Virus genome (UHGV): UHGV-0134996 | Length of the DNA stretch: 64,000 nucleotides | Strand: one strand, 5' to 3' | Origin: a virus | Shown: positions 20,331-22,956 of the stretch, piece after piece | Position numbering within the stretch: the first letter of the stretch is position 1 | Layout of the letters: each line of letters opens with the position of its first letter | Program-made: the position numbers and the translations under genes | The notes under the pieces: model-generated | The model's input: the letters and a program-made list of their open reading frames with translations, nothing else | The model's database searches: none | What the model was told of the DNA's origin: nothing

Positions 20331-20398
20331 ATTGCTCTAATAAAAAACGTGATGAGTGTACATCACGTTTTAAAAATATGGAATTATTAGAGCAATAT
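20331..20398. promoter_or_regulatory. pair of inverted C1 operators flanking a 7-bp inverted repeat
   Basis: ATTGCTCTAATAAAAAA (20331-20347) and AATTATTAGAGCAATAT (20382-20398) flank CGTGATG-agtgta-CATCACG. Confidence 0.65.
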
Positions 20399-21099
20399 TA
20401 TTCTGATTCTCGCTCAAAAAATGAGCTGATAAGGGGAAGCCAATCCTCTGACACTTCGCGAGGTCGCGGTTTGCCGTGGAAAAAGATTATTCGGCAGTCT
20501 TTTGGTAATGCCCCATTCCCCCTGGAGTAACGCGCGCTCGCATATTTTGAACCTGGTTCCACAACATCGGCCTTGTAACTTACAAACCATCCTGGATACA
20601 GATCCTGAAATGCTGGTGTATCATCGCCCATAACCTTTCGTAAGAACCCCTGATCACCCCAGCATTCAGTAGTAACACAACGAGCAATCCAACCTTCCGG
20701 ATCTTGCCAGAATGCACTCCAGATATGCGCTTTTACACTATTTGGTATCCACAGGGCACCGCTGCCACGATATTGTGGATGGTAAAAATCCCTAAGCATG
20801 GTGAAGCTGGTTGGTGGATGCTCTAGGATTGGGCGTATATCACCGGCAATAACCGTGTCCAAATCCAGATAGAACAGATCATCGGTTATATCCGGTCGGA
20901 ACAACTCTATTTTCGCCCACCAGCCACGGCACTTTTGCCACTGGTTGATCAATGGGACAACTTTGACGCCAGGTACATGTAAACGCTTCAGGTCTGTCAG
21001 GCAAATAATTTCATAGCCTTTTGGCAGTTGATTAACCAGCCACTGCACATCGGAAGCGTTATAGTCACCACCAGAGCGAAAAACTAAAGCAATCTTCAT
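20398..21099 (-). CDS. GT-A-like glycosyltransferase candidate (DXD motif)
   Basis: 233 aa; [12 protein letters not shown]-type motif in a nucleotide-sugar transferase-like context. Confidence 0.45.
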
Positions 21100-21788
21100 G
21101 CTGCACCATCACCTTTCACTTTCATCAATGTCAGGTTTCCGCAAAATACGGCACCAGTGTCGATATACTGCTGATTCCAGAATGTCTTCGGGCTTTTCAC
21201 CGGAGTGTGACCAAAGATAAAACGATCTGCGCCCGAAATTTCGCCACCAATATCATCCATCGAATCACTGATACGCTCGCGCGCCCAGACAACGTTGAAA
21301 AGCGGCACCTCCTTACCGAATTGGTATTCATTATCCGGATAGTCGGCATGGGCTATAACGATAGTTTCTTGCCCGGTGTTCAACTCAATGATATAGGGCA
21401 GACGCTTTACCAGCTCCACCAGCGCCCAGGCTAATATTTCCTGATCAGTGTCCAGCATGAAGAACCATTGTCCGCCATTCATTAGCCAGTTATTCACGTT
21501 GCCATCTGGACTTAACGCATCAATCATCAGCCGCTCATGGTTCCCCATCACTGCCCTGAACCAGGGCATCTGCAATAGTTCCAGACATTCGACATTTTCA
21601 GTACCGCGATCGATAAGGTCGCCGACCGATATCAGTAAATCCTGCGCCGGGTCAAAATCCACACGATGGAGTTCGGACATCAGTCTGGTGTAGCAACCAT
21701 GCAGATCACCAACAACCCAGACATTCCTGTATTTGGTACCGTCGATACGGTGATAAATTGTGGGTGCCATCATGTATTCTTCAGCCAT
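21096..21788 (-). CDS. ppp: Ser/Thr protein phosphatase, lambda-PPase/calcineurin-like family
   Basis: 230 aa; GDLHGC, GDLIDRG and GNHE metallophosphoesterase motifs. Confidence 0.8.
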
Positions 21789-22396
21789 TCTTTAAGAGTC
21801 ATCTGCGGAATACCTCCCATTTTCCCGCATGAAACAACGTCAATCTGTTCACGCGCAGACTGGAATAACAAAGGCAGGTGACTTAGATTTTTTGGCGTGC
21901 CGCCGGAGTGAACGCGTGGTTCTTGTGTAGCGTCAACGCCCACCAGGGCGACATGTTTGAATCCGATATGGAAAGCCAGGTTCAGAGCGCCATATGCACT
22001 ATTGCCGCTGGCAATTTCATTCTCATCTTCGCAAAGTCCGAAATGTGCGGACCAGCGCCACGCCCACCACTCGGGAGAATTCATATTTTTTGGCTCCATG
22101 CCACGTTCAGCCACACGACGGAAGCACAGAACGCCGTCTCTGACTTCACGTTCTTTAACATCGGGTAGTGCCATGCAATAACAAACACCACGGCGACGGC
22201 GGCCACGACCAACGCGCCGCATATTGTCTGGCGATGGATCAAGTGTGAAAAAATAAGAAGCGCGGTTCAGCCAGTCGATGGCCCCATTGACCGCTATAAT
22301 CGGCACTCCGCGCGGCGCAACAAAGTTTGCGGCGCTTGGGCCACTGCCGACGATAATAACGCGATCACTGCCTCTAAATTTATTCTTGGGAAACAT
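21770..22396 (-). CDS. DUF115 / MptE-like domain protein (paralog A)
   Basis: 208 aa; IIVGSGPS...IIAVNGA Rossmann-like motif shared with upstream paralog. Confidence 0.5.
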
Positions 22397-22956
22397 TGAA
22401 TTGCACTGCTCCTACTTGCATTCAAAATATGTAAATCTGCGTGTTTTTTGCGGGTATCCAGGAACTGCTGTTGCCATTTTGAAATAGACACCTGCGTTGG
22501 ATTCCGTAGGGCTTGAGGGTGCGCGCCATGCCAATGAAGGCCGTTTTGCAGAGAACAGTCATAGCCGACTAATACAACTACTTCAGCCCCTGATTCAGCA
22601 GCCAGACTGATAGCCTGCGCGCCGCTATTTACCCCTTCCGCCGGTCCACAATATCGCCTGTACTCCAACGAAAATGATTTCGCCGCCGCCAGGTTGGCTG
22701 TCACTTTGCGGAATTTCCCTCCCGGTATGGTGGATCCGTATTGCTTCCACCATGACAAATCACCGGCGTATAAGGCATAAATGTCATCGAACATCTGCCA
22801 GGAATTGTTAACCGCGATGATTGAACAGCCAGTTTTTTCTATAGCAGCACAGTCCTCACGAGTGAGTGACGGACCGCTACCGACACAAAAAACAGTCCTA
22901 GTCGCCCTGGGTGGTATGTTCATTCTCAGCTGCAAATTCAGCCTCCAGGCGAGCAT
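22294..22956 (-). CDS. DUF115 / MptE-like domain protein (paralog B)
   Basis: 220 aa; VFCVGSGPS...IIAVNNS; 103-bp overlap with paralog A, true start may be internal. Confidence 0.5.
   Translation of the reverse strand: MLAWRLNLQLRMNIPPRATRTVFCVGSGPSLTREDCAAIEKTGCSIIAVNNSWQMFDDIYALYAGDLSWWKQYGSTIPGGKFRKVTANLAAAKSFSLEYRRYCGPAEGVNSGAQAISLAAESGAEVVVLVGYDCSLQNGLHWHGAHPQALRNPTQVSISKWQQQFLDTRKKHADLHILNASRSSAIQCFPRINLEAVIALLSSAVAQAPQTLLRRAECRL

What the first reader, a model, noticed from the sequence alone, without database searches (positions are those of the whole stretch)
20398..22956. Cassette of GT-A-like transferase, Ser/Thr phosphatase and two tandem DUF115/MptE-like paralogs
Four adjacent minus-strand genes: a DXD-motif nucleotide-sugar-transferase-like protein (20398-21099), a calcineurin-like phosphatase (21096-21788), and two paralogous DUF115-type Rossmann proteins (VGSGPS...IIAVN) that overlap by about 100 bp. 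DUF115 proteins elsewhere act in flagellin glycosylation (Maf) or pterin pyrophosphorylation. Together this could be a modification system acting on phage or host proteins, or on nucleotides, under the C1 operator pair at 20331-20398.
Basis: partly seen in the sequence, partly recalled or inferred. Interest (0 to 1): 0.5.

Follow-up and report, generated by a model that had tools for sequence, protein, structure and literature searches.

The report
P1 phage sugar-adding gene trio
These are the long-known but functionally uncharacterised phage P1 genes pmgO, pmgP, ppp and pmgQ; three of them form a sugar-attaching enzyme set that recurs in many unrelated phages of Gram-negative bacteria, and the phosphatase is an unrelated insertion.

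Summary
The window is a P1-like phage (99% identical to P1 and RCS47). The finding is the standard P1 operon pmgN-pmgO-pmgP-ppp-pmgQ (P7 names: hdmA-D plus ppp). All four ORFs sit at the stated coordinates.

The domain calls hold, with caveats:
- Ppp is a full-length lambda phosphatase homologue.
- PmgQ is a GT8-like retaining GT-A glycosyltransferase by structure and motifs, but matches no Pfam family.
- PmgO and PmgP are remote paralogues with a Maf/DUF115 fold. The P1 copies score below Pfam's threshold.

New here:
- PmgO, PmgP and PmgQ co-occur in very diverse phages and prophages.
- They occur as natural fusions (O-P, Q-O, Q-P, P-Q).
- Elsewhere they are joined or fused to extra glycosyltransferases and sugar O-methyltransferases.
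- ppp occurs only in some P1-like phages. Cronobacter phage JK004 lacks it.

The C1 operator pair at 20331-20396 lies downstream of pmgQ and, per the P1 annotation, controls pmgR/pmgS. The operon's own operator is Op83, at about 23097-23113.

Published deletions and CRISPRi show all four genes are dispensable for plaque formation, so the "morphogenetic" label is unsupported.

Best reading: a phage glycan-building module acting on an unknown cytoplasmic acceptor, tentatively a virion protein. The function is untested.

The parts
23126..23152 (-). Predicted sigma-70 promoter PpmgN, inside the 3' end of pmgM. Taken from the P1 annotation and not tested here.
   Evidence: P1 record AF234172 annotation mapped onto the window (window coordinate = locus coordinate + 15499). 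My own consensus scan did not flag it.
23097..23113 (+). C1 operator Oppp (former Op83), the operator that actually sits upstream of this operon.
   Evidence: P1 annotation. The window sequence here is TATGCACTAATTAATTT (read). It has 4 mismatches to the consensus ATTGCTCTAATAAATTT, so the 3-mismatch search missed it.
22898..23053 (-). pmgN (51 aa as annotated in P1). The mechanical ORF runs to 23095 (65 aa), which matches P7 hdmA. It is the first gene of the operon, function unknown, and was found only in P1-like phages.
   Evidence: No Pfam, NCBIfam or PADLOC hit.
22294..22956 (-). pmgO. Single-domain Maf/DUF115-fold protein, predicted to be an ulosonic-acid (CMP-sugar) glycosyltransferase. 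Residues 1-18 are probably not part of the fold.
21770..22396 (-). pmgP. Remote paralogue of pmgO with the same DUF115 fold family. It overlaps pmgO by 103 nt in the -1 frame.
   Evidence: hhalign of the PmgO family against the PmgP family: probability 97.7%, E 1.6e-12. 31 of 35 members hit PF01973. Invariant N37, D53, N132-S133, G153 and D155, H173. Overlap geometry.
21096..21788 (-). ppp. Lambda-type PPP-family Ser/Thr phosphatase. It is an insertion specific to some P1-like phages and not part of the conserved trio.
   Evidence: Pfam Metallophos 59.3 bits. NCBIfam PrpA/PrpB-type models E 3e-81, below the equivalog cut-off. 1G5B E 1.5e-94 over the full length, with the GDLHG, GDLIDRG and GNHE motifs. 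Absent from JK004 and from all non-P1 loci.
20398..21099 (-). pmgQ. GT8-like retaining GT-A glycosyltransferase, predicted to use UDP-hexose and Mn2+. It belongs to a large family that has no Pfam model.
   Evidence: AF2 model, pLDDT 94.4. Foldseek PDB matches: AgtA 6mw5 1.6e-8, then GlyE, glycogenin and LgtC. Profile against PDB sequences: 6mw5 E 1.6e-6. Invariant W60-W61, K63, D79-L-D81-T, G148-D149, S174, K176, H208-G209, P211 and P213. 5,688 cluster representatives at E <= 1e-3.
20342..20371 (-). Terminator-like hairpin with a U-run directly after the pmgQ stop codon. Probable 3' end of the operon. It overlaps the predicted -10 element of PpmgR.
   Evidence: RNA fold of 20335-20400(-): 11-bp inner stem AAAACGUGAUG / CAUCACGUUUU followed by UU. 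Energy of the whole fold, outer 9-bp stem included, is -19.6 kcal/mol, z-score -7.5 against shuffles. Not annotated in P1 and not flagged by the simple scanner.
20331..20396 (.). C1 operators OpmgRb (20331-20347, + strand) and OpmgRa (20380-20396, - strand). It marks the boundary of the operon and belongs to the downstream pmgR-pmgS operon.
   Evidence: Pattern search: both sites have 3 mismatches. There are 14 sites in the window against 0.37 expected by chance. The P1 annotation says OpmgRa controls expression of pmgR and pmgS.

Best explanation
The region is the phage P1 operon pmgN-pmgO-pmgP-ppp-pmgQ. By annotation it is transcribed leftward from PpmgN under C1 operator Op83, and it probably ends at a hairpin just after pmgQ.

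PmgO, PmgP and PmgQ together form a conserved phage-borne glycan-building module. PmgO and PmgP are minimal Maf/sialyltransferase-like (DUF115-fold) enzymes. They probably work as a pair. I infer that each transfers an ulosonic acid from a CMP-sugar. In hosts such as E. coli K-12, the only such donor I know of is CMP-Kdo (my own knowledge). PmgQ is a GT8-like retaining glycosyltransferase. I infer that it adds an alpha-linked hexose from a UDP-sugar, using a DxD/His-bound metal.

All three proteins are soluble. The module has no lipid-carrier, flippase or oligosaccharyltransferase genes, so the glycan would be built directly on a cytoplasmic acceptor during lytic growth. The acceptor is not known. 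My first choice is a phage structural protein, O-glycosylated on Ser/Thr in the way Maf glycosylates flagellin.

Ppp is an independent lambda-type Ser/Thr phosphatase that was inserted between pmgP and pmgQ in one branch of P1-like phages.

Shown here: gene identity, folds, paralogy, synteny, fusions and the ppp indel.
Shown in the literature: dispensability for plaque formation.
Inferred: enzyme activities, donors, the pairing of PmgO with PmgP, and the acceptor.
For: Identity and operon layout.

Folds:
- PmgQ model, pLDDT 94, matches AgtA, GlyE, glycogenin and LgtC.
- PmgQ has invariant K63, D79xD81, G148-D149 and H208, and nearly invariant Q150.

Maf chemistry in the literature (bioRxiv 10.1101/2020.06.03.131540):
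- Maf needs two acidic residues and a conserved Ser.
- Maf transfers Kdo in E. coli strains that lack nonulosonic acids.
- PmgO D66/S111/D133 and PmgP D53/S133/D155 are invariant in the matching motifs.

The three genes behave as a unit:
- Families O, P and Q co-occur within a few kb in 16 loci. P and Q co-occur in 21 of the 24 non-P1 loci that carry a PmgP homologue; the other 3 lie on short or cut-off contigs.
- These loci span Enterobacteriaceae, Pseudomonas, Zhongshania, Brevundimonas, Commensalibacter, Ochrobactrum, Sinomicrobium and jumbo phages of Xanthomonas and Stenotrophomonas.
- Natural fusions exist: O-P (P0051), and Q-O, Q-P, P-Q and Q-Q.

Glycan chemistry is supported by the accessory genes and domains found inside these cassettes:
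- extra GT-A genes (weak, sub-threshold Nucleotid_trans matches) and a GT4 gene;
- class I SAM methyltransferases;
- FkbM, TylF and rhamnosyl-O-methyltransferase/CmcI methyltransferases.

Phage context everywhere: directly after the major capsid gene (L004, L098) or one gene after it (L113), after MuF, portal or TerL genes, or between the lysis and terminase genes.

No transmembrane-like segment in any of the proteins.

ppp is an indel.
Against: - No biochemical or mass-spectrometric evidence exists for any step. No paper found addresses these proteins' function.
- The residue equivalence with Maf rests on motif order and spacing, not on a residue-level structural alignment.
- In large lytic phages the trio lies among replication and nucleotide-metabolism genes (DNA polymerase A, SSB, RNR, NAD ligase). 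Gene position therefore does not point uniquely to a virion target.
- PmgO, PmgP and PmgQ were not among the P1 virion proteins discussed in the text read, and P1 virion glycosylation has never been reported (PMC9024508).
- Deletions show no plaque or antirestriction phenotype, so there is no phenotype on which to anchor a function.
- P1's own PmgO and PmgP score below Pfam's threshold.
Confidence: 0.55

Rival explanations
1. Envelope glycolipid modification. The trio acts at the cytoplasmic face of the inner membrane on lipid A-core or another glycolipid. This would alter or truncate the LPS core, which is the P1 receptor. The result would be receptor masking, superinfection exclusion, or less loss of progeny on cell debris.
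For: - E. coli's LPS outer-core hexosyltransferases (WaaO, WaaR, WaaJ) are GT8 enzymes (my own knowledge). LgtC, a lipooligosaccharide GT8, is among the fold matches.
- All hosts identified for the trio are Gram-negative.
- The database carries a precomputed 'faint' WaaZ_KDO_III hit on the O-P fusion P0051.
- PmgO and PmgP are basic, pI 9.3-9.5, as many peripheral membrane glycosyltransferases are.
- A preprint on phage DNA glycosyltransferases discusses diversion of LPS sugars as a possible exclusion mechanism (10.1101/2023.12.21.572611).
Against: - The WaaZ hit was not reproduced even at E <= 10.
- In P1 the operon lies behind a C1 operator. Elsewhere the trio sits inside head operons, after lysis genes, or in lytic jumbo phages. 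Expression is therefore expected in lytic growth, not in lysogens, where receptor conversion would pay off.
- LPS already in the outer membrane is not changed by new synthesis late in infection (my own knowledge).
- No association with LPS or capsule gene clusters was seen in any locus.
Confidence: 0.15
2. Pyrophosphokinase pathway. PmgO and PmgP are ATP-dependent pyrophosphokinases like MptE or thiamine pyrophosphokinase. They would activate a hydroxymethyl- or hydroxyl-bearing small molecule or nucleotide, which PmgQ then transfers. This would be a metabolite, cofactor or signalling-molecule pathway, for example an anti-defence function.
For: - The only Pfam family hit is named MptE-like.
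- The genes are dispensable on K-12 laboratory strains. That fits a counter-defence role needed only against systems K-12 lacks.
Against: - The obligate partner PmgQ is a glycosyltransferase. The accessory and fused domains are glycosyltransferases and sugar O-methyltransferases, not nucleotide or cofactor enzymes.
- No PADLOC similarity, although PADLOC holds defence proteins, not anti-defence proteins.
Confidence: 0.12
3. One reading: all four genes, phosphatase included, form one integrated modification system, regulated by the operator pair at 20331-20398.
For: - The four genes are contiguous, on the same strand and translationally coupled. pmgP and ppp overlap by 19 nt; ppp and pmgQ overlap by 4 nt.
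- This arrangement is kept in P1, P7, RCS47, SJ46 and a Pantoea P1-like element.
Against: - ppp is missing from JK004, which keeps pmgL-M-N-O-P-Q-R-S-pap in order.
- ppp is missing from every non-P1 locus that has the trio.
- Ppp is a full-length lambda-phosphatase homologue. In lambdoid phages that gene stands alone in the nin region (PHROG name NinI-like; the location is my own knowledge).
- The operator pair is downstream of the cassette and is annotated as controlling pmgR/pmgS.
Confidence: 0.1
4. Nucleic-acid glycosylation. The trio attaches sugars to phage DNA or RNA as protection against restriction.
For: - In large lytic phages the trio lies beside RNR, DNA polymerase, SSB or ligase genes.
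- Phage glycosyltransferases that put Kdo, heptose or hexoses on 5hmC are described in preprint 10.1101/2023.12.21.572611.
Against: - Those systems need a hydroxymethylated base made by a C5-methyltransferase plus a TET-like oxygenase, or by a hydroxymethylase. None was seen next to the trio in the neighbours I scanned.
- P1 DNA is, to my knowledge, not hypermodified.
- The P1 deletions did not change antirestriction activity.
- The closest structural relatives act on proteins or glycans.
Confidence: 0.05
5. The database label is right: these are morphogenetic (head-assembly) proteins, as the names pmg and hdm imply.
For: The names in the P1 and P7 records, and the position among tail and head-completion genes.
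Against: - In-frame deletions of pmgN, O, P, Q and ppp were made. Only pmgA, B, C, G and R were essential (PMC9024508).
- CRISPRi scored pmgO, pmgP, ppp and pmgQ as non-essential (PMC10695390).
- All have enzyme folds.
Confidence: 0.03

Closest known systems
Maf (motility-associated factor) flagellin glycosyltransferases, e.g. Magnetospirillum Maf (PDB 5mu5), Clostridium botulinum and Geobacillus Maf
   Same: - Same Pfam superfamily, PF01973.
- Acidic-Ser-acidic residue pattern kept.
- Soluble cytoplasmic enzymes that O-glycosylate a protein directly from a CMP-ulosonic acid, and that can use CMP-Kdo in E. coli.
   Different: - Maf is about 630 aa with extra N- and C-terminal domains (target length 632). 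PmgO and PmgP are about 200-aa catalytic cores.
- The phage proteins come as a paralogous pair tied to a GT8-like enzyme.
- They are phage-encoded, with no flagellar or nonulosonic-acid synthesis genes nearby.
- Activity and acceptor are untested.
GT8-type retaining glycosyltransferases: glycogenin, LgtC, GlyE, and the Skp1 alpha-galactosyltransferase AgtA (6mw5)
   Same: - GT-A fold (Foldseek E 1e-8 to 1e-6, TM 0.5-0.6).
- The DxD, GDQ and H-G-x-P-[KR]-P motifs align with AgtA in a profile search.
- Several of the top matches extend glycans on cytoplasmic proteins.
   Different: - No member of the PmgQ family reaches any Pfam model, PF01501 included.
- Sequence identity to the fold matches is 11-17%.
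- The WWxK motif and the SYK motif are family-specific.
- The family is phage-borne and often fused to DUF115 or methyltransferase domains.
Mycobacteriophage virion glycosylation (Che8 and related phages; Freeman et al. 2023, cited in PMC11256854)
   Same: Phage-encoded glycosyltransferases that decorate the phage's own capsid proteins in the cytoplasm during lytic growth. They are dispensable for plaque formation, to my knowledge. The gene position is not always within the structural operon.
   Different: - Different host type (Actinobacteria).
- No DUF115 component, as far as I recall.
- Glycosylation there is experimentally shown. Here it is only a hypothesis.
Bacteriophage lambda Ser/Thr phosphatase (lambda-PP, NinI; PDB 1G5B) and E. 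coli PrpA/PrpB
   Same: Ppp aligns over its full length with 1G5B (E 1.5e-94) and keeps the GDxHG, GDxxDRG and GNHE motifs. It also matches the PrpA/PrpB-type NCBIfam models.
   Different: It is embedded in a C1-controlled P1 operon between two glycosyltransferase-like genes, rather than in a lambdoid nin region. Its substrates in P1 infection are unknown.
Archaeal MptE 6-hydroxymethyl-7,8-dihydropterin pyrophosphokinase (PDB 8sd5) and thiamine pyrophosphokinases
   Different: Weaker match than Maf. There are no folate, pterin or thiamine genes nearby. The partners are sugar enzymes.

Membership tests
Phage P1 pmgN-pmgQ/ppp operon (P7 hdmA-D/ppp) | Nucleotide identity and gene order identical to the P1 and P7 reference records | tested here: met
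   98.2-99.4% identity over 4.5 kb to P1, P7 and RCS47. All CDS coordinates map one-to-one.
PPP-family Ser/Thr phosphatase (lambda-PP type) | Metallophos domain above Pfam threshold, plus the GDxHG / GDxxDRG / GNHE motifs | tested here: met
   PF00149 59.3 bits against 21.5. 1G5B E 1.5e-94. GDLHG, GDLIDRG and GNHE are visible in the alignment.
DUF115 / MptE-like (PF01973), including Maf | Score above Pfam's gathering threshold | tested here: not met
   P1 PmgO scores 23.6 bits and PmgP 21.1 bits against 34.6. At family level, 32 of 34 and 31 of 35 members hit at E <= 0.01, with best E-values of 1.7e-11 and 8.6e-7. The O-P fusion P0051 passes with 44.6 bits.
DUF115 / MptE-like (PF01973), including Maf | Maf/sialyltransferase-like Rossmann-type fold | tested here: met
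   [not shown]
Maf flagellin glycosyltransferases | Acidic / Ser / acidic residues required for activity (CbMaf D272, S334, D357) | tested here: inconclusive
   PmgO has invariant D66, S111 and D133. PmgP has invariant D53, S133 and D155. They lie in the same motif order, with a Ser-to-Asp spacing of 22 against 23 in CbMaf. No residue-level structural alignment was available.
Maf flagellin glycosyltransferases | Multi-domain architecture with flanking domains, and a neighbourhood of flagellin or nonulosonic-acid synthesis genes | tested here: not met
   PmgO and PmgP are 220 and 208 aa; Maf is 632 aa. All neighbourhoods are phage genes.
CAZy GT8 / Pfam Glyco_transf_8 retaining glycosyltransferases | GT-A fold with a DxD motif and a C-terminal His metal ligand | tested here: met
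   Foldseek matches AgtA, GlyE, glycogenin and LgtC at E 1e-8 to 1e-7. Invariant D79-L-D81 and H208. Alignment to 6mw5 at E 1.6e-6.
CAZy GT8 / Pfam Glyco_transf_8 retaining glycosyltransferases | Sequence membership (Pfam PF01501 hit) | tested here: not met
   No Pfam family matches any of 27 PmgQ-family members at E <= 0.01. I therefore call it 'GT8-like', not a GT8 member.
Glycosyltransferase activity of PmgO, PmgP and PmgQ | Transfer of sugar from a nucleotide-sugar to an acceptor | not testable with these tools
   No experimental data found in the library.
Phage morphogenetic (pmg/hdm) genes | Required for production of infectious virions | tested here: not met
   From the literature, not my own test. 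Deletions are viable (PMC9024508). CRISPRi scores them non-essential (PMC10695390).
Phage virion glycosylation systems | Glycan covalently attached to a virion protein, dependent on the phage glycosyltransferases | not testable with these tools
   This needs mass spectrometry of wild-type and deletion virions.

The most novel reading that the evidence does not exclude
PmgO, PmgP and PmgQ are the core of a widespread, so far unrecognised protein O-glycosylation system of phages that infect Gram-negative bacteria. The PmgQ family alone has more than 4,000 clusters at 50% identity with E <= 1e-10. The system would draw on the host's CMP-Kdo and UDP-hexose pools to put a short, sometimes methylated, glycan on virion proteins.
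Probability: 0.2. Interest if true: 0.75.

Novelty: new variant of a known kind. Interest (0 to 1): 0.45.

Why it matters
P1 is one of the most heavily used phages in genetics. Yet a block of its genome still carries a 2004 placeholder label, "putative morphogenetic function", which deletion studies have since contradicted.

This work shows three things:
- Three of these genes are one unit that recurs in P1, in lambdoid and HK97-like prophages, and in jumbo phages.
- The three genes are found fused to one another in nature.
- Elsewhere the unit travels with sugar-tailoring enzymes.

That turns four "hypothetical" genes into a concrete, testable hypothesis: a phage glycosylation module. The P1 deletion mutants needed to test it already exist.

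If the acceptor is a virion protein, it would extend virion glycosylation from mycobacteriophages to phages of Gram-negative bacteria. That would have consequences for immune recognition of therapeutic phages and for recognition by bacterial defence sensors.

If the acceptor is LPS or a host factor, it would be a new host-takeover or exclusion mechanism.

The PmgQ family is also a large glycosyltransferase-like family with no Pfam model.

Tried and rejected
1. Profile-profile comparison of the PmgO and PmgP alignments with the tool. It gave a spurious 100% hit, because the O-P fusion P0051 was a row in the PmgO alignment. I repeated it without that row.
2. A joint alignment to model the natural O-P fusion (A4). 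MAFFT stacked the PmgO homologues on the PmgP half, so I abandoned it and modelled P1 PmgO alone.
3. The scan of viral contigs with the PmgP alignment returned only P1-like contigs. It was useless for diversity. The genome scan and the look-up of encoding contigs gave the diverse loci.
4. Programmed -1 frameshift that would fuse PmgO to PmgP. P1 has an in-phase A_AAT_TTA heptamer in the overlap, and pmgP is in the -1 frame. But JK004, phiNP and most other loci have no slippery site, and the shift would delete the conserved C-terminal LE helix. Rejected.
5. WaaZ (Kdo III transferase) relationship. It was a precomputed 'faint' hit only and was not reproduced at E <= 10.
6. Single-sequence PDB searches for PmgO, PmgP and PmgQ gave nothing significant. 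The PmgP profile also found nothing.
7. PADLOC defence models: no hits.
8. Literature searches for pmgO/P/Q function, DUF115 in phages, and glycosylated capsids of Gram-negative phages gave no relevant paper. The 'DUF115' hits were DUF1156. The P1 genome paper and Freeman et al. 2023 are not held.
9. Gene position as a pointer to a capsid target. It was initially attractive, because the trio follows the capsid gene in L004, L098 and L113. It was weakened by the replication-module position in L105, L006 and L007.
10. My greedy ORF caller produced antisense artefacts in high-GC loci. I used only HMM-supported ORFs and ORFs on the same strand.

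
Full report
**What is there.**
The window is a P1-like phage or plasmid. A 4.5-kb query around the finding matches Escherichia phage RCS47 at 99.4%, P1 isolates at 98.2-99.0% and P7 at 98.3%, over its full length.

They map one-to-one onto annotated P1 genes:
- pmgQ, 20398-21099
- ppp, 21096-21788
- pmgP, 21770-22396
- pmgO, 22294-22956

A fifth small gene, pmgN (22898-23053), precedes them. P7 calls the same genes hdmD, ppp, hdmC, hdmB and hdmA. The genes are tightly packed. 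pmgO and pmgP overlap by 103 nt, pmgP and ppp by 19 nt, and ppp and pmgQ by 4 nt.

**Regulation.**
They lie at 20331-20347 (+) and 20380-20396 (-), each with 3 mismatches to the consensus. The window holds 14 such sites against 0.37 expected by chance.

However, the genes are on the minus strand, so these sites lie downstream of pmgQ. In the P1 record they are OpmgRb and OpmgRa (former Op86b and Op86a), 'controls expression of pmgR and pmgS'. The operator annotated upstream of this operon is Oppp (former Op83). It maps to window 23097-23113, just downstream of the predicted promoter PpmgN (23126-23152).

Directly after the pmgQ stop codon there is a strong hairpin followed by a U-run, at 20342-20371 on the minus strand. 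The fold of the surrounding 66 nt has an energy of -19.6 kcal/mol and a z-score of -7.5 against shuffles. I read this as the probable 3' end of the operon. It is not annotated in P1, and it overlaps the predicted -10 element of PpmgR.

**Ppp.**
Ppp passes Pfam Metallophos (59.3 bits against 21.5). It matches the E. coli PrpA/PrpB-type NCBIfam models. It aligns end to end with the lambda phosphatase structure 1G5B (E 1.5e-94), with the GDxHG, GDxxDRG and GNHE motifs intact. It is an ordinary, very probably active, lambda-type Ser/Thr phosphatase.

**PmgQ.**
No Pfam, NCBIfam or PADLOC model matches PmgQ, and no Pfam model matches any of 27 family members.

An alignment of 27 homologues shows invariant W60-W61, K63, D79-L-D81-T, G148-D149, S174, K176, H208-G209, P211 and P213, and nearly invariant Q150. 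A profile built from that alignment finds the Skp1 alpha-galactosyltransferase AgtA (6mw5, E 1.6e-6). It finds GlyE and glycogenin more weakly.

The AlphaFold model is confident (pLDDT 94.4). Its best PDB matches are AgtA, GlyE, glycogenin, LgtC and XXYLT1 (E 1e-8 to 1e-6, TM 0.5-0.6). PmgQ is therefore a GT8-like retaining GT-A glycosyltransferase by fold and motifs, although it is not a sequence member of PF01501.

The family is large. It has 5,688 representatives of 50%-identity clusters at E <= 1e-3, and 4,071 at E <= 1e-10.

**PmgO and PmgP.**
Each hits PF01973 (MptE-like, DUF115) only below the gathering score. At family level, 32 of 34 PmgO-type and 31 of 35 PmgP-type sequences hit it at E <= 0.01.

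The two proteins are barely similar by BLASTP (E 0.003 over 36 residues). Their family profiles align over 159 columns at 97.7% probability and E 1.6e-12, once a contaminating fusion protein is removed. 'Tandem paralogues' is therefore correct, but the duplication is old.

Work on Maf showed that two acidic residues and a conserved Ser are needed for activity. It also showed that Maf enzymes transfer Kdo from the E. coli CMP-Kdo pool when no nonulosonic acid is available (bioRxiv 10.1101/2020.06.03.131540). PmgO (D66, S111, D133) and PmgP (D53, S133, D155) carry invariant residues in the same motif order and spacing. This equivalence is inferred from motif order, not from a residue-level superposition.

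**The key comparative result.**
I collected loci that encode PmgP relatives from annotated phages, one genome per species, and metagenome assemblies. I then scored their ORFs with HMMs of the three families and with the other P1 proteins.

- PmgQ-family genes accompany PmgP-family genes in 21 of the 24 non-P1 loci that carry a PmgP homologue. The three exceptions lie on short or cut-off contigs.
- All three families are present in 16 loci. These loci come from:
  - Enterobacteriaceae (Citrobacter phage phiNP, E. coli phage EP_H11, Pseudescherichia, Serratia);
  - other Proteobacteria (Pseudomonas, Zhongshania, Alloalcanivorax, Brevundimonas, Commensalibacter);
  - Sinomicrobium (Bacteroidota);
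  - the jumbo phage XacN1, with matches also in Xoo-sp13, CM1 and RAS14.
- The order is usually O-P-Q.
- Ppp relatives appear only in the P1-like loci.
- The P1-like Cronobacter phage JK004 keeps pmgL-M-N-O-P-Q-R-S-pap in order, with pmgP and pmgQ 40 nt apart and no ppp.

The conserved unit is therefore the trio, and ppp is an insertion in one branch of P1-like phages.

**Fusions and companions.**
Natural fusions link all three families:
- P0051 is PmgO-PmgP, and it passes the Pfam threshold for PF01973.
- Among the 150 best PmgQ-family representatives there are Q-O fusions (P0214, P0226, P0233, P0356, P0259), one Q-P (P0242), one P-Q (P0291) and Q-Q tandems. One of the tandems carries a strong DUF115 domain (P0254, 72.5 bits).

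The extra genes inserted within or next to the trio in other phages are all sugar enzymes:
- a further GT-A gene with weak, sub-threshold Nucleotid_trans matches (L100, L112) and a homologue of it in L004
- a GT4 (L006)
- class I SAM methyltransferases (L098, L104, L115)
- an FkbM methyltransferase (L105)

Several PmgQ-type proteins are fused to a TylF, rhamnosyl-O-methyltransferase/CmcI or class I methyltransferase domain (XacN1, P0320, P0279, P0337).

This pattern argues that the DUF115 proteins work here as glycosyltransferases in a short glycan-building pathway. It argues against a role as pterin- or thiamine-type pyrophosphokinases.

**Where the module sits and when it is expressed.**
Every neighbourhood examined is phage:
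- directly after the major capsid gene (Pseudomonas L004, Zhongshania L098) or one gene after it (Ochrobactrum L113/L114)
- after MuF-like, portal or large-terminase genes (L104, L111, L108, L100)
- between the lysis cassette and the terminase genes (phiNP L005, L112, L115)
- in larger lytic phages, among replication and nucleotide-metabolism genes: DNA polymerase A, SSB and RNR in L105, NAD ligase in L006, RNR in XacN1

In P1 the operon lies behind a C1 operator. All of this points to expression during lytic growth rather than in the lysogen. It does not point to one acceptor.

None of the proteins has a transmembrane-like segment. No lipid-carrier transferase, flippase or oligosaccharyltransferase accompanies the trio in the neighbours scanned.

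**What the literature says.**
Gonzales et al. made in-frame deletions of pmgN, pmgO, pmgP, pmgQ and ppp, among 29 genes. Only pmgA, B, C, G and R were essential. The other 24 mutants had no plaquing defect and no change in antirestriction activity (PMC9024508).

The genome-wide CRISPRi screen scored pmgO, pmgP, ppp and pmgQ as non-essential, with efficiency of plating 0.7-1.4. It scored pmgN as essential, in conflict with the deletion result (PMC10695390). Transcription-blocking knock-downs usually also silence the genes downstream in an operon (my own knowledge). On that assumption, the pmgO result suggests that loss of the whole trio plus ppp is tolerated on E. coli K-12.

I found no paper that addresses the function of these proteins or of DUF115 proteins in phages. 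RefSeq and PHROG-derived labels already call them 'glycosyltransferase', 'alpha-2,3-sialyltransferase' and 'metallophosphoesterase'.

**Most likely mechanism.**
I commit to the following, at about 0.55 for the glycan-building core and about 0.3 for the specific acceptor.
- PmgO and PmgP act together. The evidence is strict co-occurrence, natural fusions and the overlapping genes.
- They act as CMP-ulosonic-acid transferases. The likeliest donor is CMP-Kdo. To my knowledge it is the only CMP-sugar available in K-12 and the one common to all the Gram-negative hosts seen.
- PmgQ adds an alpha-linked hexose from a UDP-sugar.
- The glycan is built directly on a cytoplasmic acceptor during lytic development. 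I favour a phage structural protein for three reasons:
  - the nearest structural relatives glycosylate proteins or protein-bound glycans (Maf, AgtA, GlyE, glycogenin);
  - several phages place the trio inside the head module;
  - mycobacteriophage virion glycosylation is a precedent (Freeman et al. 2023, cited in PMC11256854).
- Ppp acts independently.

The rivals are:
- modification of LPS or another envelope glycolipid, 0.15
- a pyrophosphokinase-based small-molecule pathway, 0.12
- nucleic-acid glycosylation, 0.05
- a true morphogenetic role, 0.03

**Verdict.**
- The genes themselves are long known. Their function is not.
- What is new is the recognition of a conserved, widely distributed three-enzyme phage module. 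It has Rosetta-stone fusions and sugar-tailoring companions, and the phosphatase is shown to be an indel.
- I rate this a new variant of a known kind (phage-encoded glycosylation), of moderate interest, and readily testable with existing P1 mutants.

Noticed in passing
window 20342-20371 (- strand): A strong hairpin with a U-run lies immediately after the pmgQ stop codon, between the two Op86 operators. It overlaps the predicted -10 element of PpmgR (20367-20372). It is not annotated as a terminator in the P1 record. Transcripts that start at PpmgR would lack the 5' arm, so the hairpin could insulate the two operons.
   Followed up: partly
window 22294-22396 (pmgO/pmgP overlap); heptamer at about 22375-22381 (- strand): pmgP lies in the -1 frame relative to pmgO in 11 of 12 loci examined. 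P1 has an in-phase A_AAT_TTA slippery-type heptamer in the overlap that would join the two frames. The heptamer is not conserved (absent in JK004 and phiNP), so I do not think a frameshift fusion is made.
   Followed up: yes
P0051 / locus L112 10001-11131; P0214, P0226, P0233, P0242, P0254, P0291, P0356: Natural single-chain fusions of the PmgO, PmgP and PmgQ families occur in several orders. Other PmgQ-type proteins are fused to sugar O-methyltransferase domains (XacN1 L007 5630-6946, P0320, P0279).
   Followed up: yes
PmgQ family (alignment A3): The family has 5,688 representatives of 50%-identity clusters at E <= 1e-3, yet no Pfam or NCBIfam model covers it. It is a large unmodelled GT8-like family.
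   Followed up: partly
window 22898-23095 (pmgN): The CRISPRi screen scored pmgN as essential (efficiency of plating 1.4e-2), but the in-frame deletion is viable. A knock-down at pmgO, next downstream, is harmless. So the pmgN effect is probably not polarity on pmgO-pmgQ. It could reflect the nearby promoter and operator or the 3' end of pmgM. The start codon also differs between records: P1 annotates 51 aa, P7 and the mechanical ORF give 65 aa.
   Followed up: no
window 23120-23698 (pmgM): PmgM looks like a VRR-NUC-type nuclease or Holliday-junction-resolvase-like protein. The Pfam VRR_NUC hit is 21.2 bits against a threshold of 23.8. PHROG 5702 'Holliday junction resolvase' hits at E 1e-26. 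It is another 'morphogenetic' label that looks wrong.
   Followed up: no
window 18254-18760 (pap): Pap matches the HAD phosphatase domain of polynucleotide kinase-phosphatase (PF25109, 44.6 bits against 27.6), rather than a generic acid phosphatase. Together with Ppp, this gives P1 two phosphatases within 3.5 kb.
   Followed up: no
locus L003 (Serratia plymuthica chromosome) and L092-L096 (Pseudescherichia and other Enterobacteriaceae): In some enterobacterial chromosomes the three genes are scattered over about 6 kb on different strands. They sit next to a holin and a lysozyme gene and to non-phage genes (lipase, lipoxygenase, Big_1 proteins). This looks like a decayed prophage in which the trio has been retained.
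   Followed up: no
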